Positions 5,105-44,410 of a DNA stretch of 64,000 nt are shown piece by piece. Source of the DNA: Naegleria gruberi (taxonomy: Eukaryota); assembly GCA_000004985.1 (NCBI GenBank), contig GG738900.1. One strand, written 5' to 3'. A model generated the notes under the pieces. That model searched no databases. It had not been told where the DNA came from and was given only the letters and a program-made list of their open reading frames with translations. Position 1 is the stretch's first letter, and each line of letters opens with the position of its first letter. Made by a program: the position numbers and the translations under genes.

Positions 5105-5549
5105 TTAAATTCAAATGATATTCGTTAACTAGGGAAAAACTGTGGAAAAATATTTTGTAACACCTTATAACTTCACATGTTCCATGGTATTCTATGGTAT
5201 TCAATGTTGAAATCAAACTGAAATTCTTAATTTGTTGGTCTTTTCAATTGGAATTTGAACTTCCTTAAATTCTAGAACCTTAAGCAACTTGGATTTCAAA
5301 AACGTTCAAACTCGATTTAGAATTCAATCCAACAATGACTATGAAAAAATTGCCTCTTGAACAAAATTCCATCAAACACCAAACCTTTATAAATAAAAAC
5401 AACTACAATTCAACAACCTTAACGTACCGATTGTTGACAAAGTTTCTCTCTAATTTGCTTTCAATTACCGTTGAAATACGTTCGATTTTAGAATGGTATT
5501 GTCGACTTTTTAATGTATAGCGGACAATACATCAATTTTGGTGTTTTAT

Positions 5550-22309: not shown

Positions 22310-25300
22310 TTACTTTCTTTTGAGGAAGGATGGTTTACCAAAGAATGAAGACTTAATGCTTTGAAGTTCACCTACCGATTGTAAATCATTTCCTTCAGTC
22401 TCATTATTTTGTTCAGGATCTGTCTTCTTATTTCTAGTAAAGAATGATTTCTTTGTATCCAAACGAGGTATAGCAGCTCTAGTATTTTGTACTTCTTCAA
22501 CTACAACATAAACATCTTCTGCTTCATCATCATCTTGTGCAACTTGTTGTGTGCTAATGTTTGAGGAAACAACATGCTGAGTGGAACCGGTTACAACTGT
22601 GCTACTAGAGCTAGAAGAATGGTTAGTAACAGTAGAGCTACTGGTTTGCTTTGTGACAATATTTGAACTACTGATGGCTTGTTGAGAACTTGTTATCACT
22701 GTTTGTCCGGATACTGCTGATGAGTTTGAATTTTCTGTTGTGGTGATAGTGGAAGAGCTTTGCTTTGATCCAAAGGCCCCTTTCACTGCTTCTCTCATGG
22801 AAGTCTTGCTTTTCATTCCCTTCAATGCTTGCCATCCAAATGGCATTCTCTTCTTTTCAACTCCAGTTTCTTCAACTACAACATAAACATCTTCTGCTTC
22901 ATCATCTTCTTGTGCTACTTGTTGACCATTACTACTGGACACAACTTGTTGACTTGAGGATTGACTAACCATTTTACCTGATTCACTTGCTTCGATAGAT
23001 TTGCTACTATTTACAACAGTCTTTTCTTGTGAAGAAAATCTAGTGGATTTAGATTTTTCAGGCTTTCTCTTTGATGATGCTTCTTGGGATTCAACAACAA
23101 TATAAACATCTTCTCCTTCATCAACCTCTTCAGAAGCACCAGATTGTTGAGTTGAGGTCTTTTGAGCTACCATATTAGATGTCATATTTATAGAAGCAGC
23201 TGATCTACTGCTGATCATAGAGTTGGTAGATTGATAGGTACTTAATTGATCTTCTTGGGTGTAATCAGATGATCTACCTTCCTTTGTTATCAATGCATTG
23301 GCAGCATCTCTCATTGACATCTTATTCTTCTTCATATCTTTCAATGCTTGCCATGCTGAAGATTTCTTTCTCTTCTCCTTTGCTTCTGACTCTACAACAA
23401 CATAAACATCCTCACCTTCATCAACTTCTTCCTTCTTGTTAACAACACTACCCACGTTTCGTTCAAACATACCACTACTCAAGGTTTGCAACATCATATC
23501 TTCGTTCTTTTCCTCTTCGAAAGACATTGGTGGTTTACTTCTGTTCACAACAGTATTCTCTTCAAAGGAACTTTCATTGTTGGAAGAAGAGTTTGGTAAA
23601 GTCTTACTTGATTTGCTAGATTTAGACTTTTCAGGCTTTCTCTTTGATGATGCTTCTTGAGATTCAACAACAATATAAACATCTTCTCCTTCATCAACCT
23701 CTTCAGAAGCACCAGATTGTTGAGTTGAGGTCTTTTGAGCTGCCATATTCAATTCGCTGGATTGTTGATTTGAGGATTTTTGAAGTTTTCTACTACCAGA
23801 AGTAGAGTTAGATTGGTGGACTTGTTCTTCATCAAGAGATACTGGAGGCTTACTTCTGTTAACAACTGATTTTTCTTGAGAAGATTTTGTGGATGATTTT
23901 CCGTTCTTTGACTTCTTGTTTGATCTCTTCTTTGATTTTTCTTCAGATTCCACAACAACAAAAACATCTTCTCCTTCATCTTCTTCAACAGAATTGGTCA
24001 CATTTTGTTGCATCGATTGTGCTTGCATTCCAGATAAGTTACTTGTTGGTATCTTTTGCTTGCTTTCTTTTGGTTTGCTGACTGGTTTCATCTTCTTTTC
24101 TTCAGATTCTACAACTACGAATACATCCTCTCCTTCGTCCTTGCTTTCTGTTGCTGTAGCCATTATTGATTCTCTGTGAGATAATGGCGAGCTCCTAACT
24201 GCTGGTTGGGTTGGTTCTTCATCAAATGACAATGGAGGCTTGCTTCTGTTGACAACTGAATTTTCACTAGAATCTCCAATATATTTGGAAGAAACCTTAA
24301 TTGGTTTGTTTTGCATGATATCTTCTTGAACTGGAGGAGCGTATTTCTTGGCTTGTTCTGATTCTGCAACAATATAAACATCTTCATCAACCTCTTCAGA
24401 AGCAGCAGATTTGTTAGACACTTGTGGTCTTGTTTCCTCAGAAGTGAATTTCTTATTTACAACACTTTCTTCGAACTTATTAGCAGCAAACATGTCACCA
24501 TACAAAGATTGTAACATCTTCTTATTTTCTTCCTCTTGTACGACATTTAGTGGAGAGGCCTTTACTATCTTTTCTTCCTCAGTATAAACTTGTCCTCTAA
24601 CAGTTTGAGAGTTAACACTTGATGGTCTGCTACTGGTTGTTGAATTCAATTCCACATCTCTAGTTTCCTTGGATGCTGACTGAACTCTAGTTCTTCTTGT
24701 TGGGAGTCTTGGACTACCGTGAGATTGAGGTCTTGATGAGCTTTGGTTTGATGTAACTCTTGGAGCACTCTTATTGTTCAAAACAACGTTTTGCAATGAT
24801 TTTTCCTCTTCCTCTTCTTCATCAATATAAACTTGGCCTTGAACTGTTTGAGATTTAGGAGCAACATAGGATCTTGGTTTGGAAGGTTTAACTTCTTCAG
24901 GTGTTGTTTCCACAACTTGCTTCTTTTCCTTTTCTGAGAATAATTCACCTCTCAAGGTTTGAGCCTTATTACTTTGTAAAACTCTTGGCTGAACAAATTC
25001 AGGCGTCTTACTATGATTAACAACTTCCTTTTCTTCAGTTTGCTTGGTTTCACTAAATACATCTCCTCTCATGGTTTGAGATTTGTTACTTGGTAAAACT
25101 CTTGGACTCTTTGGTTGAGCAACTTCTAGGGCTCTACTATGATTAACCACTTCCTTTTCTTCCTTAGAGTTTGCATAAAGTTCTCCCTTCAAGGTTTCCG
25201 TATTTGCACTTGAAATATGCTTCTTTTCTGGAACTTTACCGATTGGCTTACTAGATACATCACTACCGGTAATCAAATTGGCATTCTCATCGACAGTAGT

Positions 25301-28300
25301 AACACTCTTCTCTCCAAATAAATCACCCCTAATGGTTTGAGCCTTATTACTTTGTAAAACTCTTGGACTCTTTGTTTGAGCAAATTCTGGGGCTCTACTA
25401 TGATTAACAACTTCCTTTTCTTCAGTTTGATTGGTTTCACTAAATACATCTCCTCTCATGGTTTGAGATTTAGTTTCAGTGGAAGTTCTTGGAATCTTTA
25501 CTTGTGTTGGAGCAAATTCTGGGGCTCTATGGTTAACCACTTCCTTTTCTTCAGTATTCTTGTCCTTGAGTATTTGAGAAGAAACCTTAATAGGCTTGTT
25601 GAATAACAAGTCATCCATAGTCTTTTCTTCGTTTTGTTCAGTCTTTCTAAATATGCTACTTTCTTCCATCTCTTCACATTCATCTTCAGTAGATCCCATC
25701 GAGAATGGATTTAATGATGATAATTTGGCAGGTTTTGGTTTTGTGCCCCGTTGTACAAAATCTTTTTCATCTACCAATTCTACACTACTTTCCTCTTCAT
25801 GTTCATCCTTAACACGTCCGTTGGCATATGCAAACTCGTTAACAAGACCTTCTTTGACAAGTTTTACAGAGTTGCTACTTCTTCTCAAATCGTCAGTTTC
25901 TTCAACCAAAGATTCGTCTTCATCTTCAGTGACACTATGTTGCATTGAAACATCTCTTTCTCCTTGAATAATATTTGATTTCTTTGATAGCCTTGGTGTG
26001 AATGATTGTACTACGTTTGGCTGGACTTCAGTTTCTTCAGTATAATTTTGTTTGGCGTAAGGATTGATTGATTGCATTGTCATCTTATTCTTCTTTTCTT
26101 CAAATGTTTCTTCATCATCCTTCAAATCCCAGATAGAACCATTTGAATTCTTCACATTCACTTCCTTTTCTTCCTTTTCTTCTGTTTCTTCGTATTGATT
26201 TTCATTCAAGTCAACAAGTGTACCTCCAAGAAGTGGAAGAACCTTATTCTTTCCACCAGTGGTTTGTTGTACAAGTTTGGCATCTCCTGGAACAATTTGA
26301 ACCTTTCTCATAGATCTACCGGTCTTCTTAAGAGGTCTATAAGCAACAAATGGTTCTTCAACCTTAAGACCTTGCTTGTTCATAACTTCCATTTCAACTT
26401 CAGTTTCCTCGTTATATTCTTCTGCAGCTTGAGTCTTAATAGCTATTTGTTGAATCTTCATTTCTTCTTCCTCATCATATGAGATATCAGATTCAGTTGA
26501 TCCTCCAACAACAACTTCTTCTTTATGAACACAGCAACAACAACAACAGAATCCTGCAAATCTTCTTCTATTTCTACACAAGATAATGCAAGAAATAAGA
26601 CAAGTTAGAGAGAAACCACAAATAATAACAGCAGCAGCTCCTAAAGCAGCAACATAGGTGTATGAATAATAGATAACAGTGCTTGTTTGCAGCACAAATA
26701 CGTTGGTGAATTGCTTGCAACGACATTTGGCAAAGGTATCATTTCTAGAAATTGGAGCTACAAGAGAACACTCAGTTCTGATCAAAGAAGATCCATCCTC
26801 AAAATCACCACAAGTATAGGTTTCGGAAACAGTTGTAAAGTCAAGGACATCATGAATAATTTCTGTTTCGACCTTACTAAAGTTAAGTGGAATTGTATAG
26901 ATAATGTCATTCTCGTTAATTGGAGTGGCAACATCAATAAATTCAACAGAAACAATTGGTGAAATCAAGTTAGCCAAAGTATTTGCGTTGGAGAAACTAC
27001 TGGCTGATGTAATCTTTTTAGACTGTTTCAATTGCGAGTTAAGTGAGTAAATATCTTCAGAAACGCACAAAACATAAATAAATGGTTTCTTAACAAGGTA
27101 TGAAAGTTTTGACACTTCAAATTCAAAGAAACCTGACAAGACATCAATACTGGTTTGTGTAATTGGTTCTTGGACATATGTTGGATAATCGTTCAATGTA
27201 CTTTTACCAATTACGACATGGAAGAATGGACCCTGATATCCCTTCTTAAGTCTACCAGCAGACATTCCTCTGGCCATCAAGTAAGAGGTCATCTTCAATG
27301 TCAACAATAGTCTTCTAGAGTTGACTTTTTGATCAATAAGGTATTGTTTGTCAACTACATAGTAATATGCAGAACGAATGCAACCATCTAACATGATATT
27401 CATTCCTGAGGTAAGCTTCAAGCTAGGATCAGAAAGTGAGAATGTAAGGAAAGTGTTCAAAGTATATAAAGATCTATCTACAGTCACACTAGTAAGATAA
27501 GGATAATTCAATAACATTGAATCAACAGCAAAGGAAAGCAAAGATAAGTATTCAACGCTTACAGTTCCTGTTGCATTGGCAATATTGTTCATATCATCGA
27601 GTGCGTGAATCTTTGATAATTGGATATTATTAAAATCTTTGACTTCAATATCACAATATTGGCCTATCCATTCATCCTTACACTTGCAAGAACCAGCAAT
27701 ATCAACACCATTTATACATTCCAAAGAACTAGAGGAACTAGAATGTTGAATAGTATCAGAAATTGTTTCTTCCAACATTACTGAGCCTGTTCTGGAAGAT
27801 GAAGAAGATTGGTAGATACTCTTACTGTATTCTCCCTCCAAAATATAGCTTTGACCTGCATCTGCCCAAGCGATGATTGTTGTTTGGACTTCTTCAACTT
27901 GTTGAACAAATGGTTTATCAATGGTAATGTTAGTGTAAGTAGTTGTTGAAGCACCTGTAAGAGTATTAATTACTTCAAAGTAACATGTTAAAATACTTCC
28001 AGTAAATGGAGCTGGAAGTTTTGAAGAATAAACCTCGCCAAGACTATATAATGGAAGCTTGGCACCTGATCTATCATCAATAAATCCGTATACATAGTCG
28101 ATATGATTTGCATCATCTTTACAATTTGTACAGTAGAATTGGAAATCTGTTTGTTGGGCAATACCTTCAGGAGGATTGATTGTACACAAACATGGTTTTG
28201 GAGAGGTTGCAACTTCGAAAGTATATGTAGTAGATGTTGAGGCTCCAGTGTTTGGATCATAAGCAGTGATAACAACAGTATTATTTGTTCCTTCTTCAAA

Positions 28301-31300
28301 TTCGCTTGTATCAATGTTGATTGTTGATGAATCGACAATACCTTTGTTCTTTGAATTGATTGTCAAGTTGGTTCTTGTAAGTGAAGGATCACTGGAGGTA
28401 TATGTTTGAATAGTAACTGTTTGACCTTGGATAACATATGTCTTTGGTTCAACATCCACAATATTAACAATAGGAGGTACGTTTACAAAGTAAACTACTG
28501 TTGTTGCAGAAATAGATCTTCCATCAGACTTTTCAATTGTCAAAGTAAGAGTAATATAGGATGGAACAGTTTCATTAAATATCTTGGATTCAATTGTAAA
28601 CTCAGTAGATCTATCTTTAGAAATATTGAAAAGGAATTCCAATAATGTTTGGTTACTATTTTCCAAACAAGTCCAAGTCCATTGTTCAGTAATACCTGTG
28701 TGGTATGTTGATTCAGGGTCAGAGTATTCAACATCAATTATAGTATAATTCTTTCTAGCTTCTCTTTGAATAATAGATAAAACCATATCTATTGGTTTTG
28801 TTATTAATGTTACGATACTTGTTGTGTTCAATTGAGGATAGGATGGATAGAAGGCTGTAACTAAGAAAGTATATGTTTGATAGCCAAAGGTGGAAATAGA
28901 AGGAATGTAAAGATTTCCAAAGGTATCGACTTGATAATCTATTATCGGTCCTGTAAGTTGTTCCCATTTAACAGCAGATTTTTGTGATTTACAAGATGAT
29001 TCTGATACAGTCTTCTTAAAATAGACAGGGAATTGAGAGGCATCCTTTTCTTGGTGAGTGATTGGAACATAAATTGATGGAATTGGCTTTGATGCCTTAG
29101 TAAATACATTAGAATAAACAATAGAACTATTCTTTCTAGCAAATGTACTCTCAACTTGGAGAGAAACTAGGTATGAACCAGGTAAAAGACTAGAATTTTG
29201 CAATTTGATGAAAGGGCTGTTTGCAAAATTGGAATAAAAAACTTGATAGGTTGTAGAATCAAGTAAATTCCAATAATAATGCAGTGATTTTCCATCCTCT
29301 GAGTGACTCATAGATCCATCAATAGTAATATCATCACATGAACTGTAAAATTCATCCAAAGTAGAAATAACAGCAGTTGGCCAAATATTGGAAGGCATGG
29401 CAACATCTATTTGAACATAATAATTTTGTTGAGTAACGTGATTGATTCTATCAATAACAAGAGTGTTGATATTGATTGTATCAATTTCTGGTTGCAAGGT
29501 ATAATCCATAGAACCAAAGCTAATAATGAACAAATTGTTGGTTCTATCAATAAATTGACATTTAAGGTTTGATAGTGTACCAAACAAGTTTCTATTAATA
29601 TCAGTCTCACTCAATAGATAACTGCAAGGTATATCAATCTTTGTGTATGAGTCAGGAACATAGAGATTAAAGATGAGTCCTCTAAAATCTGAGGAGAAAA
29701 CAGCAGGTCCTACAACCTTTGTAGCACACAACTCACCATAATAATCTTGGTCACACTTGTTACATGTAAATCCTGTCCAAAATCCTTGGGAGTAATCTGT
29801 GTAACATTCACATGCACCACTGATTAAACATTCACCATGATTAGTACAATTGATTTCCTTTTTACAAGTACCATACATTATCATAATTTCACAATTAGTA
29901 CCATTATAACCAGTCTTACAATTACAAGTGTCAATATCTACACACTTTCCTTTTCCTGAGCAAACAGATTTTACGTTTCTTGAAACACCGAAACAATCAT
30001 ATTCTTGACATGTTGAGCCGTAATAAGTATCAACACAAGAACAATTATTATAATCTATACATTGACCTCTTCTGGAGCATACACTATTATTGTTTGATCT
30101 GACATTTCCACATGTAGTCAAGGCACAATCATTACCAAAGTAGTGTGGTCTACATGAACAATTATTATAGCTTGCACACACTCCTCTTCCTGAGCAAACA
30201 GATGGGTCAGTGTTGTTACCTTCTAAACAAGTATAGAATTCACAGTTAACTCCATAGTATCCAGTATCACATGTGCAGTTAGAATACTCAGAACATTTAC
30301 CTCTTCCAGAACAAACAGAGTTGTTAAGGTGTTCCACGTTGTTACAAGTGTAGAATTCACATGTAGGGCCATAATAACCTTCATCACAAGAGCAGTTATT
30401 AAAATCAATACATTGTCCTCTTGACGAGCAAACTGTTGTTTCGTTGGATTGTACATTACCGCAACTAGTTAATTGACAGTCAACACCCCAATAATTGGTG
30501 AAGCAGGTACAATTATTATAACTGGAGCATTCACCTCTTGCGGAGCAGGAGTTTGATTCAGTGTGATTGACATAATTGCAGGTGAAGAATTGACAATCAT
30601 TTCCAAAGTAACCTTCATCACATTCACATTTTTCATAGCTTGTACATTTACCATGCGTTGAACAAACAGATGAATTCAAATGTTCAATTCCATTACAATC
30701 ATAGAACTCACAGACAGGTCCATAAAAATCACTCTTACATTCGCATATATTGAAATCTGAGCAATTACCTCTCGATGTACAAACAGTGGAATCATTGGAT
30801 TGAACAGAACCACATGTGGTCAATTCACATGTATCACCAAAGTAGTTATCTCTGCATGAACAATTGTTGAAAGAGGAACATTCACCTCTTGATGAACAAA
30901 CTGTTGTTTCCGTGTGGTTAACACCATTACAAGTAAAGTATTGACAATCATTTCCAAAGTAACCTTCTTTGCATATACATACTTCAGGAATTGTACATTT
31001 ACCATACGTTGAACAAACAGATGAATTCAAATGTTCAATTCCATTACAATCATAGAACTCACAGACAGGTCCATAAAAATCACTCTTACATTCGCATATA
31101 TTGAAATCTGAACAATTACCTCTCGATGTACAAACTTTAGAATTATTAGATTGAACAGAACCACATGTGGTCAATTCACAAGTAGATCCAAAATAGTTAT
31201 CTCTGCATGAACAATTGTTATAGCTTGAACATTCACCTCTTGAAGAGCAAACTGTTGATTCAGTGTGATTGACACTATTGCAGGTGAAGAATTGACAATC

Positions 31301-34300
31301 ATTTCCAAAGTAACCTTCATCACATTCACATTTTTCATAGCTTGTACATTTACCGTGCGTTGAACAAACAGATGAATTCAAATGTTCAATTCCATTACAA
31401 TTAAAGTATTCACAATTATCACCATAATATCCTTCATCGCATGCACAAGAATCAAAATCTGCACATTGTCCCTTTCCAGAGCATACATTGGTATCGTTGG
31501 AAAGAACTCCATGGCAAGAGGTTACATCACATGCAAGGTCCATATAATTTTCTCTACATTTACAATCACCAAAGTTTGTACAATTACCTCTACCTGAACA
31601 TACAAGAGGTTCTCCCTCAGTAATATTGAAGCAGCTATAATGTTCGCAAATATCACCAAAGTAGCCATATTTACAAACGCAAGTGTTGTAATCAATACAC
31701 TTTCCTTTTCCAGAACATACATAAGGGTTATTTGAGTTGACAGTACCACATGTTGTCAATTCACATGTATCACCAAAGTAGTTGTCTCTGCATGAACAAT
31801 TGTTGAAGGAGGAACATTCACCTCTTGATGAACAAACGGATGAATTGGTACTGTTAATGCCACCACAAGTGAAGAATTGGCATTCACCTCCAAAGTACCC
31901 ATTTTCGCAATCACAAACATCATAATCTACACAAATACCCTTGCTATAACAAACGCTTGAGTTTGTGTTAAGAACACCAAAACATTGTACCAATTCACAC
32001 TCAGTGCCAAAATAGTTAATCGATGAGCAATTGCAAGTATTGAAATCTGAACAATTACCTCTCGATGTACAAACCTTAGAATTATTAGATTGAATAGAAC
32101 CACATGTGGTCAATTCACATGTATCACCAAAGTAGTTATCTCTGCATGAACAATTGTTGAAAGAGGAACATTCACCTCTTGATGAACAAACTGTTGTTTC
32201 CGTGTGGTTAACACCATTACAAGTAAAGTATTGACAATCATTTCCATTATAATGTTCTTCGCATTGGCATCTGTCAAATGAAGCACATTTACCAAAACCA
32301 GAACAAACTGATGATGTGTTAGAGGACACTCCATTACATGTTGTAACTTCACATGTTGAACCGTAGTAGTTTGTATCACAATCACAATCATTTACATCAA
32401 CACAAGAACCATGACCACTACAAACGCTGGAATCATTACTCAAAATACCATCACAAATGGTAACTTCGCACATTGGACCAAACATATTGGCCATACAAAC
32501 ACATGTATTTCCATCAATACAATCACCACGACCAGAGCATGTTGAATTGGAGAATTTTGAAACACCGAAACAATTGAAATTTTCGCATTCACTTCCGTAG
32601 TAACCAGCAGAACAATTACAAATATTGTAATCCATACAGGAACCCTTTGAAGAACAAACCTTAGAATCATTAGATTGAATTGAACCACATGTGGTCAATT
32701 CACAATCGTTACCAAAGTAGTTGTCTCTACAAGTGCAATTGTTGTAGCTTGAACATTCACCTCTTGAAGAGCAAACTGTTGATTCAGTGTGATTGACACT
32801 ATTGCAGGTGAAGAATTGACAATTATTTCCAAAGTAACCTTCATCACATTCACATTTTTCATAGCTTGTACAATGACCTCTTGAGGAACAAACAGATGAA
32901 TTCAAATGTTCAATTCCATTACAATTAAAGTATTCACAATTATCACCATAATATCCTTCATCGCATGCACAAGAATCAAAATCTGCACATTGTCCCTTTC
33001 CAGAGCATACATTGGTATCGTTGGAAAGAATTGAATTACAACTAGTTAATTCGCATTCGTCTCCCAAATAATTAAGGAAACATGAACAATTATTGGTTGA
33101 CATGCATGAACCACGTGAATGACAAGCTGTCAAATTGACGTTTAAAATTTCAAAACATTTGAATTCAGAACAATCAGAACCAAATGAATTTTCAAAACAT
33201 TGACAGGAATTAAATTGAGCACAAACACCCTTTCCTGAACATGTCAAATCTGTTTGATTGGACGGAATTCCAAAACACGAAGTAACTTGACAGAATTGAC
33301 CATAATTATTTTCAGTACAATTGCAGTGATCTGTTTCAATGCATTGACCACGACCAGAACAAACAATTGATTCGTTGCTCAACGCTCCATTACATTTGTA
33401 CAATGAACAATCAGGACCATAAGCGTCTGGATCACAAATACAAGTATTCATATCAGAACATTGTCCTCTACCTGAACAAACTAATTGTGATTGATTTGAG
33501 GCAATTGAATAACAATTTGTCACTTGACAATAATCACCATAATAACCCTCTCTACATGAACATTGGTTTGGTGATAAACATTCACCTCTTCCAGAACAAA
33601 CCATTGTTTCATTACTTAAAACAGCATTACAAATAGTAACAGAACAGTTCAATCCAAAGTAATTTGAAGCACATTTACATTCATCTGTACGTGAGCAAAG
33701 ACCATGTCCAGAGCAAACTTTAGATTCTGTGTTATTCAAACCAAAACATGTATGATATTGACAATTATCTCCATAGTATCCTTCTGAACAATTACATTGA
33801 TTGTAATCAGAACAAAGACCTCTTCCAGAACAAACACTCTTATTAGCCATATCGACTCCATAACATGATGTTCTCTCACAGAATTTACCATAATATCCTT
33901 CTGTACAATTACAAGAATCTGTTCCAATACAGTGTCCCCTTGAACTACAAACAATATTGGTAAAATTACTAAATGTGCCATTACATTTAGATATGGAACA
34001 ATCATCACCATACGCATCTGAAAGACAAACACACGTATCGATATCTGAACAATTACCTCTTCCCGAACAAACAGCTTTTTCGGTATTCATTGTTCCACGA
34101 CATGAAAAGACAGAACAAATACTTCCAGAATAACCCAAATTACAAGTACAATTATTGTAAGTTGCACAGAACCCGTGACGGGAGCAAACTTGGTGACTAG
34201 TAGAGGAAACTCCGCCACAAGTTGTATTTTCACAATTTGATCCAAAATATCCTGTATCACAACTACAATGATCAGCTCCAGTACAAGAACCATGAGAACT

Positions 34301-37300
34301 ACAAACTGTAGAATTTACAGCTGGAATGCCGTTACAAATTGGAATTTCACAGTTTGAGCCTTCATATCCCAAGGTTTCATCACAATTACAAATGTCCAAA
34401 TGTGTACAGAAACCACGACCAGAACAAACACTAGGAATATTAGTTGGTACCCCAAAGCAACTGGTGATTTCACAGAAATCACCAGAGTAAGTGTTTGGAC
34501 AAACACAAATATCAAGATCAATGCAAGTACCTACACCATTACAGACCTCTGTAGAATTGGAAGAAATAGAATCACAGGATGTAAATTCACAACGTGGTCC
34601 ATAATAACCATCAAGACAAGAACAAACATCAAATCTGGAACAAGATCCTCTTCCTGAACACACCGTAGAATGGTTTGTTGCTTCAATACCAAAGCAAGTT
34701 GTAAGTTCACACCAAGGTCCATAATAGTTTTGAGTACAGTTGCAAGTATCTAGGCCGACACATTTACCATGACCACTGCAAGATTTGGTTTCATTACTAT
34801 AAATATCATTACATGATGTAACTTCACAATTGATTCCATAGAATTCAGGTTGACATACACATGTATCATAATTAACACATGAACCCTTGCCTGAACAAGT
34901 TTCGTTTGATAATCTAGAGATACCAAAACATTCAAAATCTTGGCAAGTATGTCCATAATAACCTTCTAAACATGAACACTTGTCAAAAGCAGTACAATTA
35001 CCCTTCTCTCCACAAACGGAAGAGTTGGTGGATTCAACACCATAACATGTTGTTATTTCACACCATTTACCATAATAACCATCAGCACAAGAACAATTGT
35101 TTGGTGAAATACAATCTCCTCTTCCTGCACCAGAACATAAACCAACTAATCCATTACATATTGGAATTTCACAATCTGGACCACCATATCCAAGAGTTAA
35201 ATTACAAGTACAGTTATTGTAGAATTCACAAACACCACGTTTGTTACAAGCAAGAGGTGAAGTATTGTTAATACCATTACAAGTTGTGAATTGACACATT
35301 TGTCCATAATAACCAAAATCACATACACACTTGTCTCTTCCAGCACAGTTACCATGTCCACTGCATACATATGTTTCATTACCATAAACACCATAACAAA
35401 TGGAGACAGAGCAGTCATCGCCATAGGAATCTTCCTTACAAATACATTTGTTGTAGTCAATACATTGACCTTTTCCTGCACATGTGAGATTAGAGTGATG
35501 ATCAATTAAATAGCATGAGAAAATATCCAAGCATTCAGAATTTACATAAGGCTCCTTTGGATCACAAGTGATTGGAGCATCAAATGAAGCTTCTTGGAGA
35601 GTAACTTGACCCAATTCCTCAGAATGAACCCAAACTGCACCGTGTATCTTACCTGCAACCCAAAATTCTTGACCATACTTTGCAATAACAGTTCCATGAA
35701 CATGATTGACAAAGACATTTCCGTGAAGTGTTGTACTTAAGATCCAATCAGAAACGGTATTGCCAAAGTAATAAGTAGACCAGAATACATTTCTATATGA
35801 GGCACATTTTTCATATTTGAATTCTGCACCATAATAATGGATATATGGTGCTCTGAACACTACAGGTTCAGTTCCGACAATTACAAACTTGTGACCTTCA
35901 ATTAGCCAACTGTCCCTCAAACAATAGACACCCCCAAATTCAACAATGATGAGTTTTCCTAAAGAATCTGGATTATTAATGATGAAATCACATGGGAGTG
36001 TATTCAATTCATCAACTCTTTTTCCAACCTCATCAACTAGATTTTTGCCAAATTCATCATATGTGTATGTAATTCCATAACTTCCATTTCCAACATAAGG
36101 ATAGACTGGATCAGGGAATAGGAAGGTTGGAGGAGTAATAACCTGAGAAGGAATAGCAATACTTGCTGTCAAGACAGAATTAGCTAGAGAGTTTTTAGCA
36201 AGCAAAGCAGGTTTGTTACTGATCATCTTGTAGCAAGCAAAAATATCACTTTCACATTCAGCACCAGCATAACCACCACGCAAGAACAATNNNNNNNNNN
36301 NNNNNNNNNNNNNNNNNNNNNNNNNNNNNNNNNNNNNNNNNNNNNNNNNNNNNNNNNNNNNNNNNNNNNNNNNNNNNNNNNNNNNNNNNNNNNNNNNNNN
36401 NNNNNNNNNNNNNNNNNNNNNNNNNNNNNNNNNNNNNNNNNNNNNNNNNNNNNNNNNNNNNNNNNNNNNNNNNNNNNNNNNNNNNNNNNNNNNNNNNNNN
36501 NNNNNNNNNNNNNNNNNNNNNNNNNNNNNNNNNNNNNNNNNNNNNNNNNNNNNNNNNNNNNNNNNNNNNNNNNNNNNNNNNNNNNNNNNNNNNNNNNNNN
36601 NNNNNNNNNNNNNNNNNNNNNNNNNNNNNNNNNNNNNNNNNNNNNNNNNNNNNNNNNNNNNNNNNNNNNNNNNNNNNNNNNNNNNNNNNNNNNNNNNNNN
36701 NNNNNNNNNNNNNNNNNNNNNNNNNNNNNNNNNNNNNNNNNNNNNNNNNNNNNNNNNNNNNNNNNNNNNNNNNNNNNNNNNNNNNNNNNNNNNNNNNNNN
36801 NNNNNNNNNNNNNNNNNNNNNNNNNNNNNNNNNNNNNNNNNNNNNNNNNNNNNNNNNNNNNNNNNNNNNNNNNNNNNNNNNNNNNNNNNNNNNNNNNNNN
36901 NNNNNNNNNNNNNNNNNNNNNNNNNNNNNNNNNNNNNNNNNNNNNNNNNNNNNNNNNNNNNNNNNNNNNNNNNNNNNNNNNNNNNNNNNNNNNNNNNNNN
37001 NNNNNNNNNNNNNNNNNNNNNNNNNNNNNNNNNNNNNNNNNNNNNNNNNNNNNNNNNNNNNNNNNNNNNNNNNNNNNNNNNNNNNNNNNNNNNNNNNNNN
37101 NNNNNNNNNNNNNNNNNNNNNNNNNNNNNNNNNNNNNNNNNNNNNNNNNNNNNNNNNNNNNNNNNNNNNNNNNNNNNNNNNNNNNNNNNNNNNNNNNNNN
37201 NNNNNNNNNNNNNNNNNNNNNNNNNNNNNNNNNNNNNNNNNNNNNNNNNNNNNNNNNNNNNNNNNNNNNNNNNNNNNNNNNNNNNNNNNNNNNNNNNNNN

Positions 37301-40300
37301 NNNNNNNNNNNNNNNNNNNNNNNNNNNNNNNNNNNNNNNNNNNNNNNNNNNNNNNNNNNNNNNNNNNNNNNNNNNNNNNNNNNNNNNNNNNNNNNNNNNN
37401 NNNNNNNNNNNNNNNNNNNNNNNNNNNNNNNNNNNNNNNNNNNNNNNNNNNNNNNNNNNNNNNNNNNNNNNNNNNNNNNNNNNNNNNNNNNNNNNNNNNN
37501 NNNNNNNNNNNNNNNNNNNNNNNNNNNNNNNNNNNNNNNNNNNNNNNNNNNNNNNNNNNNNNNNNNNNNNNNNNNNNNNNNNNNNNNNNNNNNNNNNNNN
37601 NNNNNNNNNNNNNNNNNNNNNNNNNNNNNNNNNNNNNNNNNNNNNNNNNNNNNNNNNNNNNNNNNNNNNNNNNNNNNNNNNNNNNNNNNNNNNNNNNNNN
37701 NNNNNNNNNNNNNNNNNNNNNNNNNNNNNNNNNNNNNNNNNNNNNNNNNNNNNNNNNNNNNNNNNNNNNNNNNNNNNNNNNNNNNNNNNNNNNNNNNNNN
37801 NNNNNNNNNNNNNNNNNNNNNNNNNNNNNNNNNNNNNNNNNNNNNNNNNNNNNNNNNNNNNNNNNNNNNNNNNNNNNNNNNNNNNNNNNNNNNNNNNNNN
37901 NNNNNNNNNNNNNNNNNNNNNNNNNNNNNNNNNNNNNNNNNNNNNNNNNNNNNNNNNNNNNNNNNNNNNNNNNNNNNNNNNNNNNNNNNNNNNNNNNNNN
38001 NNNNNNNNNNNNNNNNNNNNNNNNNNNNNNNNNNNNNNNNNNNNNNNNNNNNNNNNNNNNNNNNNNNNNNNNNNNNNNNNNNNNNNNNNNNNNNNNNNNN
38101 NNNNNNNNNNNNNNNNNNNNNNNNNNNNNNNNNNNNNNNNNNNNNNNNNNNNNNNNNNNNNNNNNNNNNNNNNNNNNNNNNNNNNNNNNNNNNNNNNNNN
38201 NNNNNNNNNNNNNNNNNNNNNNNNNNNNNNNNNNNNNNNNNNNNNNNNNNNNNNNNNNNNNNNNNNNNNNNNNNNNNNNNNNNNNNNNNNNNNNNNNNNN
38301 NNNNNNNNNNNNNNNNNNNNNNNNNNNNNNNNNNNNNNNNNNNNNNNNNNNNNNNNNNNNNNNNNNNNNNNNNNNNNNNNNNNNNNNNNNNNNNNNNNNN
38401 NNNNNNNNNNNNNNNNNNNNNNNNNNNNNNNNNNNNNNNNNNNNNNNNNNNNNNNNNNNNNNNNNNNNNNNNNNNNNNNNNNNNNNNNNNNNNNNNNNNN
38501 NNNNNNNNNNNNNNNNNNNNNNNNNNNNNNNNNNNNNNNNNNNNNNNNNNNNNNNNNNNNNNNNNNNNNNNNNNNNNNNNNNNNNNNNNNNNNNNNNNNN
38601 NNNNNNNNNNNNNNNNNNNNNNNNNNNNNNNNNNNNNNNNNNNNNNNNNNNNNNNNNNNNNNNNNNNNNNNNNNNNNNNNNNNNNNNNNNNNNNNNNNNN
38701 NNNNNNNNNNNNNNNNNNNNNNNNNNNNNNNNNNNNNNNNNNNNNNNNNNNNNNNNNNNNNNNNNNNNNNNNNNNNNNNNNNNNNNNNNNNNNNNNNNNN
38801 NNNNNNNNNNNNNNNNNNNNNNNNNNNNNNNNNNNNNNNNNNNNNNNNNNNNNNNNNNNNNNNNNNNNNNNNNNNNNNNNNNNNNNNNNNNNNNNNNNNN
38901 NNNNNNNNNNNNNNNNNNNNNNNNNNNNNNNNNNNNNNNNNNNNNNNNNNNNNNNNNNNNNNNNNNNNNNNNNNNNNNNNNNNNNNNNNNNNNNNNNNNN
39001 NNNNNNNNNNNNNNNNNNNNNNNNNNNNNNNNNNNNNNNNNNNNNNNNNNNNNNNNNNNNNNNNNNNNNNNNNNNNNNNNNNNNNNNNNNNNNNNNNNNN
39101 NNNNNNNNNNNNNNNNNNNNNNNNNNNNNNNNNNNNNNNNNNNNNNNNNNNNNNNNNNNNNNNNNNNNNNNNNNNNNNNNNNNNNNNNNNNNNNNNNNNN
39201 NNNNNNNNNNNNNNNNNNNNNNNNNNNNNNNNNNNNNNNNNNNNNNNNNNNNNNNNNNNNNNNNNNNNNNNNNNNNNNNNNNNNNNNNNNNNNNNNNNNN
39301 NNNNNNNNNNNNNNNNNNNNNNNNNNNNNNNNNNNNNNNNNNNNNNNNNNNNNNNNNNNNNNNNNNNNNNNNNNNNNNNNNNNNNNNNNNNNNNNNNNNN
39401 NNNNNNNNNNNNNNNNNNNNNNNNNNNNNNNNNNNNNNNNNNNNNNNNNNNNNNNNNNNNNNNNNNNNNNNNNNNNNNNNNNNNNNNNNNNNNNNNNNNN
39501 NNNNNNNNNNNNNNNNNNNNNNNNNNNNNNNNNNNNNNNNNNNNNNNNNNNNNNNNNNNNNNNNNNNNNNNNNNNNNNNNNNNNNNNNNNNNNNNNNNNN
39601 NNNNNNNNNNNNNNNNNNNNNNNNNNNNNNNNNNNNNNNNNNNNNNNNNNNNNNNNNNNNNNNNNNNNNNNNNNNNNNNNNNNNNNNNNNNNNNNNNNNN
39701 NNNNNNNNNNNNNNNNNNNNNNNNNNNNNNNNNNNNNNNNNNNNNNNNNNNNNNNNNNNNNNNNNNNNNNNNNNNNNNNNNNNNNNNNNNNNNNNNNNNN
39801 NNNNNNNNNNNNNNNNNNNNNNNNNNNNNNNNNNNNNNNNNNNNNNNNNNNNNNNNNNNNNNNNNNNNNNNNNNNNNNNNNNNNNNNNNNNNNNNNNNNN
39901 NNNNNNNNNNNNNNNNNNNNNNNNNNNNNNNNNNNNNNNNNNNNNNNNNNNNNNNNNNNNNNNNNNNNNNNNNNNNNNNNNNNNNNNNNNNNNNNNNNNN
40001 NNNNNNNNNNNNNNNNNNNNNNNNNNNNNNNNNNNNNNNNNNNNNNNNNNNNNNNNNNNNNNNNNNNNNNNNNNNNNNNNNNNNNNNNNNNNNNNNNNNN
40101 NNNNNNNNNNNNNNNNNNNNNNNNNNNNNNNNNNNNNNNNNNNNNNNNNNNNNNNNNNNNNNNNNNNNNNNNNNNNNNNNNNNNNNNNNNNNNNNNNNNN
40201 NNNNNNNNNNNNNNNNNNNNNNNNNNNNNNNNNNNNNNNNNNNNNNNNNNNNNNNNNNNNNNNNNNNNNNNNNNNNNNNNNNNNNNNNNNNNNNNNNNNN

Positions 40301-43789: not shown

Positions 43790-44410
43790 TTTGAGTACGT
43801 TTTCTTAGTTATTGTTATTATTATTATTAGTATCGTTAATAAAATTAAGCGTTTTTTACGTTTCTACGTTGTTGCGTTTTTTGTTTTTTTGCAAGGGTCC
43901 TTAATTGTTGCACATTCAATCATGGCGGGCACGTATCTATTATTAAACCTAGCCTTATTCATGTGGAGTGTTCTTCATAAGAACCCTTAGATGAAACATG
44001 TTTCCATCTCCTTTTGGACAGCATCTTGTTTTGTTAACCGTTATTACCAAGACTTGGCAGTTGAACAATTTATGGGAATGAATACTAAAATCGGCCACTT
44101 TGATGCCATTTTAATTATTGTGAAATGTCTCTTTTGAATTTTTTATAATATTAATAAATATATGAAATTTAAAACTCATATTTTGTTAACATAAACCTTT
44201 CAAAAGAACACAATCAATATAATTTTCTTCATCATCCTGGAAGATGGAGTTGAAGATATTCCGATAGTAATGCACACGCTCCACAATAGTATGAATTAAA
44301 TGACCAGTTTCACCAACGAGACTCATTTTCTTTTTTTTGAACCAATGATGCTTGAATATTAGTTGATCAACAGAAAAAATAAAAGCAACACAAAAGAAGA
44401 TTACAACATC

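What the first reader, a model, noticed from the sequence alone, without database searches (positions are those of the whole stretch)
22400..25620. Cytoplasmic tail built from two families of tandem peptide repeats, acidic EDVYVVVESE units and QTxRGDxF units
After the TM helix, the tail contains about 8 copies of an acidic unit centred on EEVDEGEDVY[VI]VVESE, each followed by basic K/S-rich spacers. Upstream of that are about 6 copies of a unit containing QT[IML][RK]G[DEQ][VL][FY] and EEKEVVNHSRAPEF; four of these carry a literal RGD. The signal peptide is N-terminal and there is a single TM, so these RGD motifs are predicted to be intracellular. That makes an integrin-ligand role unlikely, and the conserved Y, S and T positions look more like repeated phospho-docking or SH2-type binding sites. 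The DNA repeats are imperfect and the copies at 23090 and 23660 are identical, which again indicates recent expansion.
Basis: partly seen in the sequence, partly recalled or inferred. Interest (0 to 1): 0.55.

Follow-up and report, generated by a model that had tools for sequence, protein, structure and literature searches.

The report
Motif-studded disordered tail, giant Naegleria receptor
The region encodes most of a 1,420-residue, apparently unstructured cytoplasmic tail of a giant, unannotated Naegleria gruberi (not Dictyostelium) surface receptor; it carries three families of repeated short peptide motifs that are probably docking sites, and it has no detectable relatives, so its partners are still inferred.

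Summary
The window is Naegleria gruberi, not a dictyostelid. The ORF 22310-43789 (-) encodes a signal peptide, teneurin-type EGF arrays, a REJ domain, a GPS-like motif, one TM helix and a 1,420-aa tail. The tail holds 8 acidic units (E-D-V-[YF]-[VI]-V-[VA]-E), each followed by a basic K/S-rich block in 7 of 8 cases. It also holds 7 clear and 2 degenerate QTxRGx[VL][FY] units, and a third family of 10 "VVN" units that runs through both zones. Only 3 units carry RGD, not 4. The motifs are scattered with variable spacing, not head-to-tail. Most copies are old (synonymous divergence about 0.5-0.66, pN/pS 0.33-0.56); only one pair is recent (about 98% DNA identity). The tail is Cys-poor, highly charged and compositionally disordered. 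It has no homologue, not even itself, in public protein sets. A cytoplasmic location is well supported, so an integrin-ligand role for RGD is rejected. SH2/phosphotyrosine docking is weakened because Tyr is swapped for Phe and Naegleria has no tyrosine kinases. My best reading is a multivalent docking scaffold of short linear motifs. The acidic units fit the Atg8-binding LIR/AIM pattern (compare yeast Atg1 REYVVV), but that part is inferred. Interest is moderate to low.

The parts
22310..43789 (-). Giant ORF (7,159 codons as assembled, including a run of X across the gap). Domain order: signal peptide, EGF arrays, REJ, GPS-like motif, TM, tail. The stop codon is at 22310-22312.
43724..43780 (-). 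N-terminal hydrophobic signal-peptide core (aa 4-22)
   Evidence: Kyte-Doolittle 19-aa window mean 2.3
36291..41235 (.). 4,945-N assembly gap inside the ORF. Continuity of the gene across it is assumed.
   Evidence: The modules flanking the gap are 42% identical.
27896..28909 (-). REJ domain (aa ~4961-5298) in the juxtamembrane ectodomain
   Evidence: PF02010, E 5.1e-16, 58.7 bits against a cut-off of 25
26687..26812 (-). GPS-like four-Cys motif, C-x13-C-x14-CRCKQFTNVFVLQ (aa 5660-5701). It ends 10 aa before the TM helix.
   Evidence: weak alignment to the ADGRD1 GPS + TM1, E 0.41. There is no Pfam GPS hit, so this is inconclusive.
26576..26656 (-). The single transmembrane helix (aa 5712-5738)
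   Evidence: Kyte-Doolittle 19-aa window mean 2.63
26531..26575 (-). Positive-inside stop-transfer RNRRR followed by a CCCCCC cluster, a candidate palmitoylation site (aa 5739-5753)
22313..26575 (-). Cytoplasmic tail of 1,420 aa. It is compositionally disordered and has no detectable homologue.
24362..24382 (-). Acidic unit 1, DVYIVAE (aa 6470). The only copy that fails the xLIR pattern, because of Ala at the last position.
24107..24127 (-). Acidic unit 2, DVFVVVE (aa 6555). Phe replaces Tyr.
23948..23968 (-). Acidic unit 3, DVFVVVE (aa 6608). Phe replaces Tyr.
23663..23683 (-). Acidic unit 4, DVYIVVE (aa 6703). It lies inside the recent duplicate 23619-23749.
23390..23410 (-). Acidic unit 5, DVYVVVE (aa 6794)
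23090..23110 (-). Acidic unit 6, DVYIVVE (aa 6894). It lies inside the recent duplicate 23046-23176.
22871..22891 (-). Acidic unit 7, DVYVVVE (aa 6967)
22496..22516 (-). Acidic unit 8, DVYVVVE (aa 7092)
25442..25465 (-). QT unit 1, QTMRGDVF (RGD)
25316..25339 (-). QT unit 2, QTIRGDLF (RGD)
25175..25198 (-). QT unit 3, ETLKGELY
25055..25078 (-). QT unit 4, QTMRGDVF (RGD)
24938..24961 (-). QT unit 5, QTLRGELF
24827..24850 (-). QT unit 6, QTVQGQVY
24584..24607 (-). QT unit 7, QTVRGQVY
24488..24511 (-). Degenerate QT-like unit, QSLYGDMF (aa 6427). As in the clear units, a VVN follows it.
23465..23488 (-). Degenerate QT-like unit, QTLSSGMF (aa 6768). It is followed by a VVN and then acidic unit 5.
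25532..25540 (-). VVN unit 1 (EEKEVVNH-RAPEF)
25403..25411 (-). VVN unit 2 (EEKEVVNHSRAPEF)
25142..25150 (-). VVN unit 3 (EEKEVVNHSRALEV)
25016..25024 (-). VVN unit 4 (EEKEVVNHSKTPEF)
24455..24463 (-). VVN unit 5 (EESVVNKKF)
24248..24256 (-). VVN unit 6 (ENSVVNRSKPPLSFDEE)
23858..23866 (-). VVN unit 7 (EKSVVNRSKPPVSLDEE)
23543..23551 (-). VVN unit 8 (ENTVVNRSKPPMSFEEE)
23438..23446 (-). VVN unit 9 (GSVVNKKEEVDEGEDVY)
23009..23017 (-). VVN unit 10 (EKTVVNSSKS)
23282..23359 (-). Basic segment AWQALKDMKKNKMSMRDAANALI (aa ~6811-6836). It is the longest helical stretch, and the one with the highest pLDDT (about 60), in the AF2 model of the tail. It contains a W-x-x-L core.
22775..22840 (-). Second copy of the WQALK segment, FGWQALKGMKSKTSMREAVKGA (aa ~6984-7005). 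It matches the xLIR pattern.
23046..23176 (-). Younger duplicate, copy A. It is 98% identical in DNA to 23619-23749.
23619..23749 (-). Younger duplicate, copy B

Best explanation
Window 22313-26575 (-) encodes the cytoplasmic tail of a giant type I surface receptor of Naegleria gruberi. The receptor has teneurin-type EGF arrays, a REJ domain, a GPS-like motif and one TM helix.

The tail is an intrinsically disordered, charge-segregated chain. Spacers that cannot be aligned separate at least three families of short linear motifs that selection has kept:
- 8 acidic units, E-D-V-[YF]-[VI]-V-[VA]-E.
- 7 clear and 2 degenerate QT-x-[RK]-G-x-[VL]-[FY] units.
- 10 E-x-x-VVN-x-[SK] units.

I read the tail as a multivalent docking scaffold that concentrates cytosolic partners under the receptor.

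For the acidic units my preferred partner is a ubiquitin-like protein that binds ligands by adding a beta-strand, specifically Atg8. The core [YF]-x-x-V, with an acidic run before it and E-S-E after it, is the LIR/AIM pattern. Eight closely spaced copies would give high-avidity binding to Atg8-coated membranes. That would couple the receptor to lysosomal or autophagic turnover, or to Atg8-decorated phagosomes.

Shown: the coding status, the topology, the motif families, their selection and their orphan status. Inferred: disorder (from composition and a weak AF2 result), the scaffold function, and above all the Atg8 partner. I put the general scaffold reading at about 0.75. The stated confidence (0.3) is for the full mechanism including Atg8.
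For: Coding:
- No internal stop in 1,448 codons, against 57-185 in the other frames.

Topology:
- A single TM helix, then RNRRR and CCCCCC.
- Tail Cys 0.49% against 10.3% in the ectodomain.
- The ectodomain is made of extracellular domain types, EGF_TEN/EGF_2 and REJ.

Disorder:
- 31% charged residues and 59% disorder-promoting residues.
- Mean hydropathy 0.39, below the charge-hydropathy boundary of 0.42. The ectodomain segments fall on the folded side.
- The AF2 model has mean pLDDT 33. It contains only three short helices and no strand of three or more residues in 1,099 aa.

Selection on the motifs:
- Motif cores have pS 0.47-0.66 but pN 0.15-0.29, giving a ratio of 0.33-0.56.
- E, D, V, V and E are invariant across all distinct acidic units.
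- The spacers do not align.
- Duplicates of several ages mostly show pN below pS.

LIR fit:
- 7 of 8 acidic units match the published xLIR expression. Shuffled tails give 1.16 +/- 1.0 matches, maximum 6.
- They are the top-scoring hexamers of the tail on a PSSM rebuilt from the 27 verified LIRs: 6.6-8.1 against a tail median of -7.9 and a 99th percentile of 4.0.
- Verified LIRs include yeast Atg1 REYVVV, NBR1 EDYIII and ULK1 DDFVMV (PMC5119064 Table 1).
- Y/F interchange is tolerated by LIRs (established knowledge).
- N. gruberi expresses Atg8 during autophagy and encystation (Cardenas-Zuniga et al., cited in PMC7600729).
- Two extra W-Q-A-L cores follow acidic units. Compare the verified Atg32 LIR GSWQAI.
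Against: - No binding data exist, and no orthologue is available for comparison.
- The LIR pattern is short and permissive. The PSSM scores (5.5-7.2 once Atg1 is removed from training) fall where verified LIRs (leave-one-out median 8.4) and unverified look-alikes (median 6.3) overlap, so the score does not discriminate.
- The residue just before the aromatic is an invariant Val. Most verified LIRs have D/E/S/T there.
- The stricter cLIR pattern is not matched.
- The count of 8 comes from duplication, so it is not 8 independent observations.
- The low AF2 confidence is weak evidence for disorder. A presumably folded ectodomain segment run the same way also scored pLDDT 36, although it had many predicted helices and strands.
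- The QT and VVN families resemble no motif class I could name, so two thirds of the repeat content remains unexplained.
- The same core also fits a minimal SUMO-interaction core, V-x-V-V.
Confidence: 0.3

Rival explanations
1. Endocytic or lysosomal sorting signals. The acidic units would act as tyrosine-based YxxPhi signals read by adaptor mu subunits, combined with acidic-cluster/CK2 sites. Together they would drive internalisation and recycling of a very large surface receptor.
For: - Five units contain Y-[VI]-V-V, which fits YxxPhi.
- Dense acidic flanks with Ser (E-S-E) and 42 CK2-like S/T-x-x-D/E sites in the tail.
- One NPF at aa 6027 in the proximal tail.
- A receptor of this size needs trafficking signals (inference).
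Against: - Two of 8 units have Phe and one ends in Ala. From established knowledge, mu2 binding depends on the Tyr hydroxyl, so Phe copies would be dead, yet they are as well conserved as the rest.
- One YxxPhi is normally enough. Eight copies, with the flanking E-D-V and V-V-E residues invariant, point to a longer recognition surface than YxxPhi.
Confidence: 0.12
2. One reading: phospho-docking sites. The Tyr residues, and the conserved Ser/Thr, would be phosphorylated and read by SH2-type or other phospho-binding modules.
For: - Six acidic units have Tyr in an acidic context, which many tyrosine kinases favour (established knowledge).
- The proximal tail has further Tyr-acidic sites: YNEETE, YEETEE, YTEETE, SYDEEEE.
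- Naegleria has 5 SH2 domains and 3 PTPs (PMC4342544 Table 1).
Against: - Tyr is replaced by Phe in 2 of 8 acidic units. Among the QT units, 4 of the 7 clear copies and both degenerate copies end in Phe.
- Naegleria has 0 conventional tyrosine kinases and 0 PTB domains.
- The only invariant QT-unit residues are T and G, not the aromatic.
Confidence: 0.08
3. SUMO-interaction motifs on a releasable intracellular domain. After cleavage (GPS-like site or intramembrane), the tail would enter the nucleus using its K/R-rich blocks. There the V-x-V-V cores with acidic/Ser flanks would bind (poly)SUMO, in the manner of Notch or teneurin intracellular-domain signalling.
For: - All 8 units contain a [VI]-x-[VI]-[VI] core flanked by acidic residues and Ser.
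- Basic K/R-rich blocks such as KEKRKK and SKRKPEK follow 7 of 8 units.
- There is a GPS-like motif next to the membrane.
- From memory: phospho-SIMs such as PML VVVISSSEDSD look similar.
Against: - The ELM-style SIM expressions, as I recalled them, do not match the acidic units.
- SIMs need no aromatic residue, yet the aromatic is present in 8 of 8.
- Only five loose K[KR]x[KR] matches were found.
- No cleavage evidence exists, and GPS cleavage would not release the tail from the membrane.
Confidence: 0.07
4. No specific readers. The tail would be a fast-evolving low-complexity spacer or polyampholyte, for example an entropic bristle, a charge-block condensate former or a membrane-binding basic patch. 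Its repeats would simply reflect replication slippage and unequal crossing-over.
For: - Orphan sequence with no relatives.
- Strong alternation of acidic and basic blocks.
- At least one recent duplication.
- Skewed S/E/K/V composition.
Against: - Motif cores stay almost unchanged while synonymous sites approach saturation: pS 0.47-0.66 with pN/pS 0.33-0.56.
- The spacers between them are unalignable.
- Spacing is irregular and TRF finds no slippage-type arrays.
- The order QT, then VVN, then acidic recurs.
Confidence: 0.15
5. Artefact. The repeat region would not be part of the receptor (intronic, a mis-assembly or a separate gene), or it would be extracellular.
For: - A 4,945-N gap interrupts the ORF upstream.
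- No public gene model covers this part of the ORF.
Against: - The TM helix and the whole tail lie in one uninterrupted 14-kb reading frame downstream of the gap. No internal stop occurs in 1,448 tail codons, where other frames have 57-185.
- The positive-inside rule and the Cys distribution fit a cytoplasmic tail.
- pN below pS shows selection acting on the protein.
Confidence: 0.02

Closest known systems
LIR/AIM (Atg8-family interacting) motifs, e.g. yeast Atg1 REYVVV, NBR1 EDYIII, ULK1/ULK2/ATG13 DDFV[ML][VI]; and receptors with several LIRs in a disordered cytosolic region
   Same: - An aromatic-x-x-aliphatic core with acidic residues upstream, in a region predicted to be disordered and cytosolic.
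- Y and F are interchangeable.
- 7 of 8 units match the published xLIR expression (PMC5119064).
- The YVVV core is identical to the verified Atg1 LIR core.
   Different: - Invariant Val at the -1 position, where most verified LIRs have D/E/S/T.
- The cLIR pattern is not matched.
- Eight copies on a plasma-membrane-type receptor tail is not a described arrangement, to my knowledge.
- No binding has been shown.
REJ/GPS receptors: sea-urchin suREJ1 and the polycystin-1 (PKD1/PKDREJ) family
   Same: - The ectodomain contains a REJ domain above the Pfam threshold.
- A four-Cys GPS-like motif follows directly before the first TM helix.
- EGF modules lie upstream.
- From memory: suREJ1 also has a single TM helix.
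   Different: - No 11-TM/PLAT/channel-like part.
- The GPS motif is not detected by Pfam, and His-Leu|Thr is replaced by Gln-Phe-Thr.
- More than 100 teneurin-type EGFs.
- A 1,420-aa repetitive tail with no similarity to polycystin tails.
CED-1 / Draper / MEGF10 / PEAR1 engulfment receptors
   Same: - Type I receptors with arrays of atypical EGF repeats. There is a weak N-terminal EGF_PEAR1L hit.
- A single TM helix.
- An unstructured tail whose function rests on short motifs containing an aromatic residue.
   Different: - Those tails are short and use NPxY and YxxL read by PTB or SH2 proteins. Here there is no NPxY, Naegleria has no PTB domain, and Tyr is not invariant.
- There is no sequence homology in the tail.
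Teneurins / tenascins
   Same: The EGF repeats are of the teneurin/tenascin type: PF25024 E 3e-171 and PF23106 E 4e-100.
   Different: - Teneurins are type II proteins with YD-repeat shells and a toxin-like C-terminus. None of these was found.
- The topology here is type I.
Multi-SIM proteins (RNF4-type SUMO-interaction motif arrays)
   Same: Repeated V/I-rich four-residue cores with acidic/Ser flanks in a disordered chain.
   Different: - An invariant aromatic residue inside the core.
- A membrane-anchored cytoplasmic context.
- The recalled ELM SIM expressions do not match.

Membership tests
LIR/AIM motif | [quoted passage not shown] | tested here: met
   7 of 8 acidic units match, and so does FGWQAL. 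Shuffled tails give 1.16 +/- 1.0 matches. The expression comes from PMC5119064.
LIR/AIM motif | Acidic or phosphorylatable residues N-terminal to the aromatic | tested here: met
   E-x-D-E-[GA]-E-D precedes the core in the units, and net charge is -6 to -9 over 20 aa. However, the -1 residue is Val.
LIR/AIM motif | Score that separates functional LIRs from non-functional look-alikes | tested here: inconclusive
   On the rebuilt PSSM the units score 6.6-8.1. Verified LIRs have a leave-one-out median of 8.4 and unverified look-alikes a median of 6.3. The cLIR pattern is not matched.
LIR/AIM motif | Located in an accessible, disordered cytosolic segment | tested here: met
   The composition falls on the disordered side of the charge-hydropathy boundary. 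AF2 shows almost no secondary structure. The segment is C-terminal to the only TM helix, which is followed by positively charged residues. All of this is prediction only.
LIR/AIM motif | Direct binding to the LIR docking site of Atg8 | not testable with these tools
   This needs peptide binding assays or complex modelling with N. gruberi Atg8.
SH2 / phosphotyrosine docking site | Invariant, phosphorylatable Tyr in the motif | tested here: not met
   Phe replaces Tyr in 2 of 8 acidic units. Among the QT units, 4 of the 7 clear copies and both degenerate copies end in Phe.
SH2 / phosphotyrosine docking site | Writer and reader machinery in the organism | tested here: inconclusive
   From the literature only: Naegleria has 0 conventional tyrosine kinases, 3 PTP, 5 SH2 and 0 PTB domains (PMC4342544 Table 1).
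YxxPhi adaptor-binding sorting signal | Strictly conserved Tyr followed at +3 by a bulky hydrophobic residue | tested here: not met
   Only 5 of 8 units are Y-x-x-V. Two have Phe and one ends in Ala.
Integrin-type RGD ligand | RGD exposed on the extracellular side | tested here: not met
   The tail RGDs lie C-terminal to the single TM helix of a type I protein.
Integrin-type RGD ligand | RGD tripeptide conserved among the repeat copies | tested here: not met
   Only 3 of the 7 clear units (9 with the degenerate copies) have RGD. The others have RGE, KGE, QGQ or RGQ.
REJ-domain receptors (PKD1 / suREJ family) | REJ domain above the Pfam gathering score | tested here: met
   PF02010, 58.7 bits against a cut-off of 25, E 5.1e-16.
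GAIN/GPS autoproteolytic domain | GPS motif recognised by profile, with the His-Leu|Ser/Thr cleavage triad | tested here: not met
   There is no Pfam GPS hit even at E up to 10. The triad position reads Gln-Phe-Thr. The only support is a weak PDB alignment to the ADGRD1 GPS (E 0.41).
GAIN/GPS autoproteolytic domain | GAIN fold (helical subdomain A plus beta-sandwich subdomain B) immediately before the TM helix | tested here: inconclusive
   The single-sequence AF2 model of aa 5342-5745 had mean pLDDT 35.6. That is too poor for a fold search.
Teneurin | Type II topology with a YD-repeat shell and toxin-like C-terminal domains | tested here: not met
   Only the EGF modules match. The protein has an N-terminal signal peptide and type I topology.

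The most novel reading that the evidence does not exclude
The eight acidic units, plus the two WQAL sites, are working Atg8-binding motifs on the tail of a REJ/GPS-type giant adhesion or prey-recognition receptor. The receptor would then directly recruit Atg8-conjugated membranes. That would give a discoban amoeba a receptor-level link between surface recognition or phagocytosis and the Atg8 machinery. The QT and VVN units would be two new motif classes with unknown readers.
Probability: 0.12. Interest if true: 0.7.

Novelty: new variant of a known kind. Interest (0 to 1): 0.35.

Why it matters
If the motifs are true docking sites, this tail is a natural high-valency array for finding the reader proteins of a little-studied eukaryotic lineage (Heterolobosea). 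It could show how a giant adhesion-type receptor is wired to trafficking or autophagy in an organism that lacks integrins and tyrosine kinases.

There is also a practical point. At least the C-terminal ~2,470 codons of this ORF (aa 4688-7159) have no public protein model, because the gene sits across an assembly gap. That is a concrete annotation gap in the N. gruberi reference.

If the motifs are only charge-patterned filler, the finding is ordinary.

Tried and rejected
1. Homologues of the tail. A word-indexed search of 5.8 billion proteins and a full phmmer search of 1.84 billion representatives both returned nothing, not even a self-hit.
2. Metagenome scan with the tail protein. None of the 315 pattern hits was confirmed.
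3. Metagenome scan with a degenerate DNA pattern for [GA]EDV[YF][VI]VVE. It gave 99 loci, each with a single occurrence and no co-occurring QT or VVN motif. These are chance hits.
4. Pfam scan of the tail. The only result was a sub-threshold Sorting_nexin N-terminal match (17.3 bits against a cut-off of 28), which I rejected.
5. Profiles of the acidic and QT units against PDB sequences. Only chance matches came back: a beta-strand of NCAM FN3 (VYVVAEN) and a DD-carboxypeptidase (TVRGDLY).
6. The look-up of encoding contigs for three window ORFs, the paralogue P0001 and SSRP1. The N. gruberi genome is not in that index, so I could not inspect paralogous tails or gene calls.
7. AF2 on the putative GAIN region. 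Confidence was too low, so no fold search was run.
8. Pfam GPS on short juxtamembrane fragments. No hit.
9. Tandem Repeats Finder. It found no arrays corresponding to the peptide repeats.
10. SIM regular expressions as recalled from ELM. They do not match the acidic units.
11. Six-frame search for the motifs elsewhere in the 64-kb window. None found.
12. Literature searches for Naegleria combined with REJ/GAIN/EGF receptors. Nothing specific turned up.

Full report
WHAT IS THERE

The finding lies inside one very long open reading frame, window 22310-43789 on the minus strand. It is 7,159 codons as assembled and includes a 4,945-N assembly gap at 36291-41235.

Over the part that matters here, from the TM helix to the stop (22310-26656), the frame has no internal stop in 1,448 codons. 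The other five frames have 57-185 stops. The region is therefore coding, not intronic.

A hydrophobicity scan finds only two hydrophobic segments:
- An N-terminal signal-like one, aa 4-22.
- One TM helix, aa 5712-5738, window 26576-26656.

ORGANISM

That is wrong. The SSRP1 gene in the same window (51879-53474, minus strand) is 100% identical to the Naegleria gruberi protein. It is 58% identical to the N. lovaniensis protein and 55% identical to the Willaertia magna protein. GC content is about 35% throughout the window.

THE PROTEIN AROUND THE TAIL

Both sides of the gap are filled with teneurin/tenascin-type EGF repeats: PF25024 E 3e-171, PF07974 E 2e-145, PF23106 E 4e-100.

The ~1,000 aa between the last EGF array and the membrane contain a REJ domain (PF02010, 58.7 bits against a cut-off of 25, E 5e-16).

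Ten residues before the TM helix there is a four-Cys motif, C-x13-C-x14-CRCKQFTNVFVLQ. It aligns weakly (E 0.41) with the GPS motif plus TM1 of adhesion GPCR D1 (CRCTHLTNFAILM). Pfam's GPS model does not detect it. The His-Leu|Thr triad reads Gln-Phe-Thr. A single-sequence AF2 model of the segment was too poor to test for a GAIN fold (pLDDT 35.6). I record it as GPS-like and unproven.

The only detectable relative of the juxtamembrane ectodomain is an N. gruberi paralogue, P0001, at 28% identity. Its gene model stops before the membrane.

The ORF did not find itself in either protein collection. So at least aa 4688-7159 has no public gene model.

A ~400-aa module on either side of the gap is 42% identical. 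The gap therefore hides either an internal super-repeat or, less parsimoniously, the junction of two tandem paralogues. In either case the tail is contiguous with an EGF/REJ ectodomain and the TM helix.

CHECKING THE OBSERVATION

The pattern [DE]V[YF][VI]V[VA]E occurs exactly 8 times, all in the tail. None occurs elsewhere in the window in any frame.

In an alignment of the seven distinct copies, E, D, V, V and E are invariant: E-D-V-[YF]-[VI]-V-[VA]-E. Each unit is strongly acidic, with net charge -6 to -9 over 20 aa. In 7 of 8 it is followed by a K/S-rich block of +5 to +8.

N-terminal of the acidic units there are 7 clear QT-x-x-G-x-[VLIM]-[FY] units and 2 degenerate LQ[ST]L..G.MF copies. 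T and G are the only invariant residues. Only three units carry RGD (aa 6112, 6154, 6241), not four.

It has 10 copies, and in the forms VVNRSKPP[LVM]S[FL][DE]EE and VVNKK it continues through the acidic zone.

The order QT, then 6-9 aa, then VVN recurs. Twice it continues into an acidic unit. The 'two families' are therefore parts of one evolving mosaic.

At the DNA level the copies are scattered, with spacings of 159-375 nt. Tandem Repeats Finder reports no corresponding arrays.

AGE AND SELECTION

The pair 23046-23176 / 23619-23749 is 98% identical in DNA, with one amino-acid change in 43. One QT+VVN super-unit pair has pS 0.25 and pN 0.07.

Averaged over all copies, the motif cores are much older:

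| Family | pS | pN | Source |
|---|---|---|---|
| Acidic | 0.47 | 0.15 | |
| QT | 0.51 | 0.29 | |
| VVN | 0.66 | 0.27 | |

Synonymous sites approach saturation while the peptide is kept, and the spacers between motifs cannot be aligned. That is the signature of short linear motifs under purifying selection, not of a purely recent expansion.

TOPOLOGY AND PHYSICAL NATURE

The TM helix is followed by RNRRR and six consecutive Cys residues. These fit the positive-inside rule and a candidate palmitoylation cluster.

| Feature | Ectodomain | Tail | Source |
|---|---|---|---|
| Cys | 10.3% | 0.49% | |
| N-x-S/T sequons per 100 aa | 2.8 | 1.8 | |

Six of the seven tail Cys residues belong to the juxtamembrane cluster.

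The tail is 31% charged and 59% disorder-promoting residues. It lies on the disordered side of the charge-hydropathy boundary, whereas all ectodomain segments lie on the folded side.

AF2 on aa 6061-7159 gave mean pLDDT 33. The model contains three short helices and no strand of three or more residues in 1,099 aa. The longest and most confident helical stretch is AWQALKDMKKNKMSMRDAANALI, at pLDDT about 60.

One caution applies. A presumably folded ectodomain piece run the same way also scored only 36, though with many helices and strands. So the pLDDT value on its own is not evidence of disorder.

NO RELATIVES

All of the following came back empty or with chance hits only:
- Two exhaustive protein searches.
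- Two metagenome scans.
- Pfam.
- PDB profile searches.

Because N. gruberi and N. lovaniensis share only 58% identity even in SSRP1, a disordered tail would be expected to diverge beyond whole-sequence recognition. The absence of hits therefore does not show that the motifs are species-specific.

HOW IT MOST LIKELY WORKS

The anatomy is a long disordered cytoplasmic chain with conserved 7-15-residue islands in variable spacers, high copy number and charge-block alternation. That is the anatomy of a multivalent docking scaffold. I hold this general reading at about 0.75.

For the acidic units the best-fitting known class is the Atg8-binding LIR/AIM:
- 7 of 8 units match the published xLIR expression. 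Shuffled tails give about 1.2 matches.
- They are the top-scoring hexamers of the tail on a PSSM rebuilt from the 27 verified LIRs.
- The YVVV core is the verified core of the yeast Atg1 LIR (REYVVV). NBR1 EDYIII and ULK1 DDFVMV are close (PMC5119064 Table 1).
- Y/F exchange is what an aromatic-pocket ligand tolerates.
- N. gruberi is reported to express Atg8 during autophagy and encystation (reference cited in PMC7600729).
- Two WQAL cores after acidic units resemble the verified Atg32 LIR GSWQAI.

Against this reading:
- The scores fall in the overlap of functional and non-functional look-alikes.
- The -1 residue is Val rather than an acidic residue.
- The stricter cLIR pattern fails.
- The eight copies are not independent observations.

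I put the Atg8-specific part at about 0.2-0.3. The QT and VVN families match no motif class I can name.

RIVALS

- SH2/phosphotyrosine docking. It is weakened by Tyr-to-Phe replacement: 2 of 8 acidic units, and 4 of the 7 clear QT units plus both degenerate copies, have Phe. Naegleria also has 0 tyrosine kinases, 0 PTB domains and 5 SH2 domains (PMC4342544).
- YxxPhi sorting. It fails the invariant-Tyr requirement.
- A SUMO-binding, nucleus-bound intracellular domain. It is compatible with the V-x-V-V cores and the basic blocks, but it does not explain the invariant aromatic. It also does not match the recalled SIM expressions.
- Neutral low-complexity filler. It is contradicted by pN below pS and by motif-versus-spacer conservation.
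- Integrin-type RGD function. It is excluded by topology and by the poor conservation of the D.

COMPARISON WITH KNOWN SYSTEMS AND NOVELTY

The ectodomain places the protein next to REJ/GPS receptors (suREJ1, polycystin-1) and, by its EGF type, next to teneurins and tenascins. It is not a teneurin: it is type I and has no YD shell.

In overall design (EGF arrays, one TM helix, a motif-bearing tail) it works like CED-1/Draper/MEGF10. It lacks their NPxY/YxxL motifs and the PTB readers.

The tail is a new, orphan instance of a known kind of thing, a disordered receptor tail carrying arrays of short motifs. What is unusual is the valency and two motif families with no counterpart. I rate it a new variant of a known kind, interest about 0.35. 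The score would rise substantially if Atg8 binding, or conservation of the motifs in other heteroloboseans, were shown.

Noticed in passing
window 27896-28909 (-) and 26687-26812 (-): The juxtamembrane ectodomain has a bona fide Pfam REJ domain. Ten residues before the TM helix there is a GPS-like four-Cys motif (CRCKQFTNVFVLQ) that aligns weakly with the ADGRD1 GPS. Pfam GPS does not detect it, and the cleavage triad reads Q-F-T instead of H-L-T.
   Followed up: partly
window 36291-41235, with flanks 35090-36289 and 41237-42400 (-): A 4,945-N assembly gap sits inside the giant ORF. A ~400-aa module (EGF, then ~250 aa of non-EGF sequence 'GGVYC...CASYRNVFW', then EGF) is 42% identical on the two sides. 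The gap therefore hides a large internal repeat or the junction of two tandem paralogues. The ~250-aa module has no Pfam match.
   Followed up: partly
window 22310-29728 (-): Neither protein collection returned a self-hit for this part of the ORF. The best hit was a 28%-identical N. gruberi paralogue, and the tail found nothing at all. The gene appears to be missing from the N. gruberi annotation.
   Followed up: partly
window 22775-22840 and 23282-23359 (-): Two copies of a basic segment, [AG]WQALK.MK.K.SMR[DE]A, follow acidic units 5 and 7. The first copy is the longest and most confident helical stretch in the AF2 model of the tail. Both copies contain a W-x-x-L core like the verified Atg32 LIR GSWQAI.
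   Followed up: partly
window 25610-26575 (-), proximal tail aa 5739-6060: The non-repetitive proximal tail has a CCCCCC cluster right after the TM helix. It also has three Tyr-acidic units (EYNEETEVE, QYEETEEKE, NYTEETEVQ), an SYDEEEE site and a single NPF.
   Followed up: no
window 41237-43789 (-), N-terminal EGF region: The first ~400 aa contain three nearly identical ~85-aa double-EGF units (FTVHWCYGIGSNDSTVCSGNGACVDLNNCQCSSNYFG[ND]DCQVTQCFGVLSNSSLVC...). This points to recent duplication in the ectodomain as well.
   Followed up: no
window 23889-24179 (+) and 25596-25967 (+): ORFs of 96 and 123 aa lie antisense to the tail. They are S/F/L-rich mirror images of the repeat-coding strand and are most likely not genes.
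   Followed up: no
window 44363-45241 (+), 48498-51035 (-), 11038-14037 (+): The neighbouring ORFs are ordinary eukaryotic genes: a cytochrome P450 fragment (probably split by introns), a Tudor-SN nuclease and an RSN1/OSCA-type channel. This fits a compact N. gruberi chromosomal region.
   Followed up: partly
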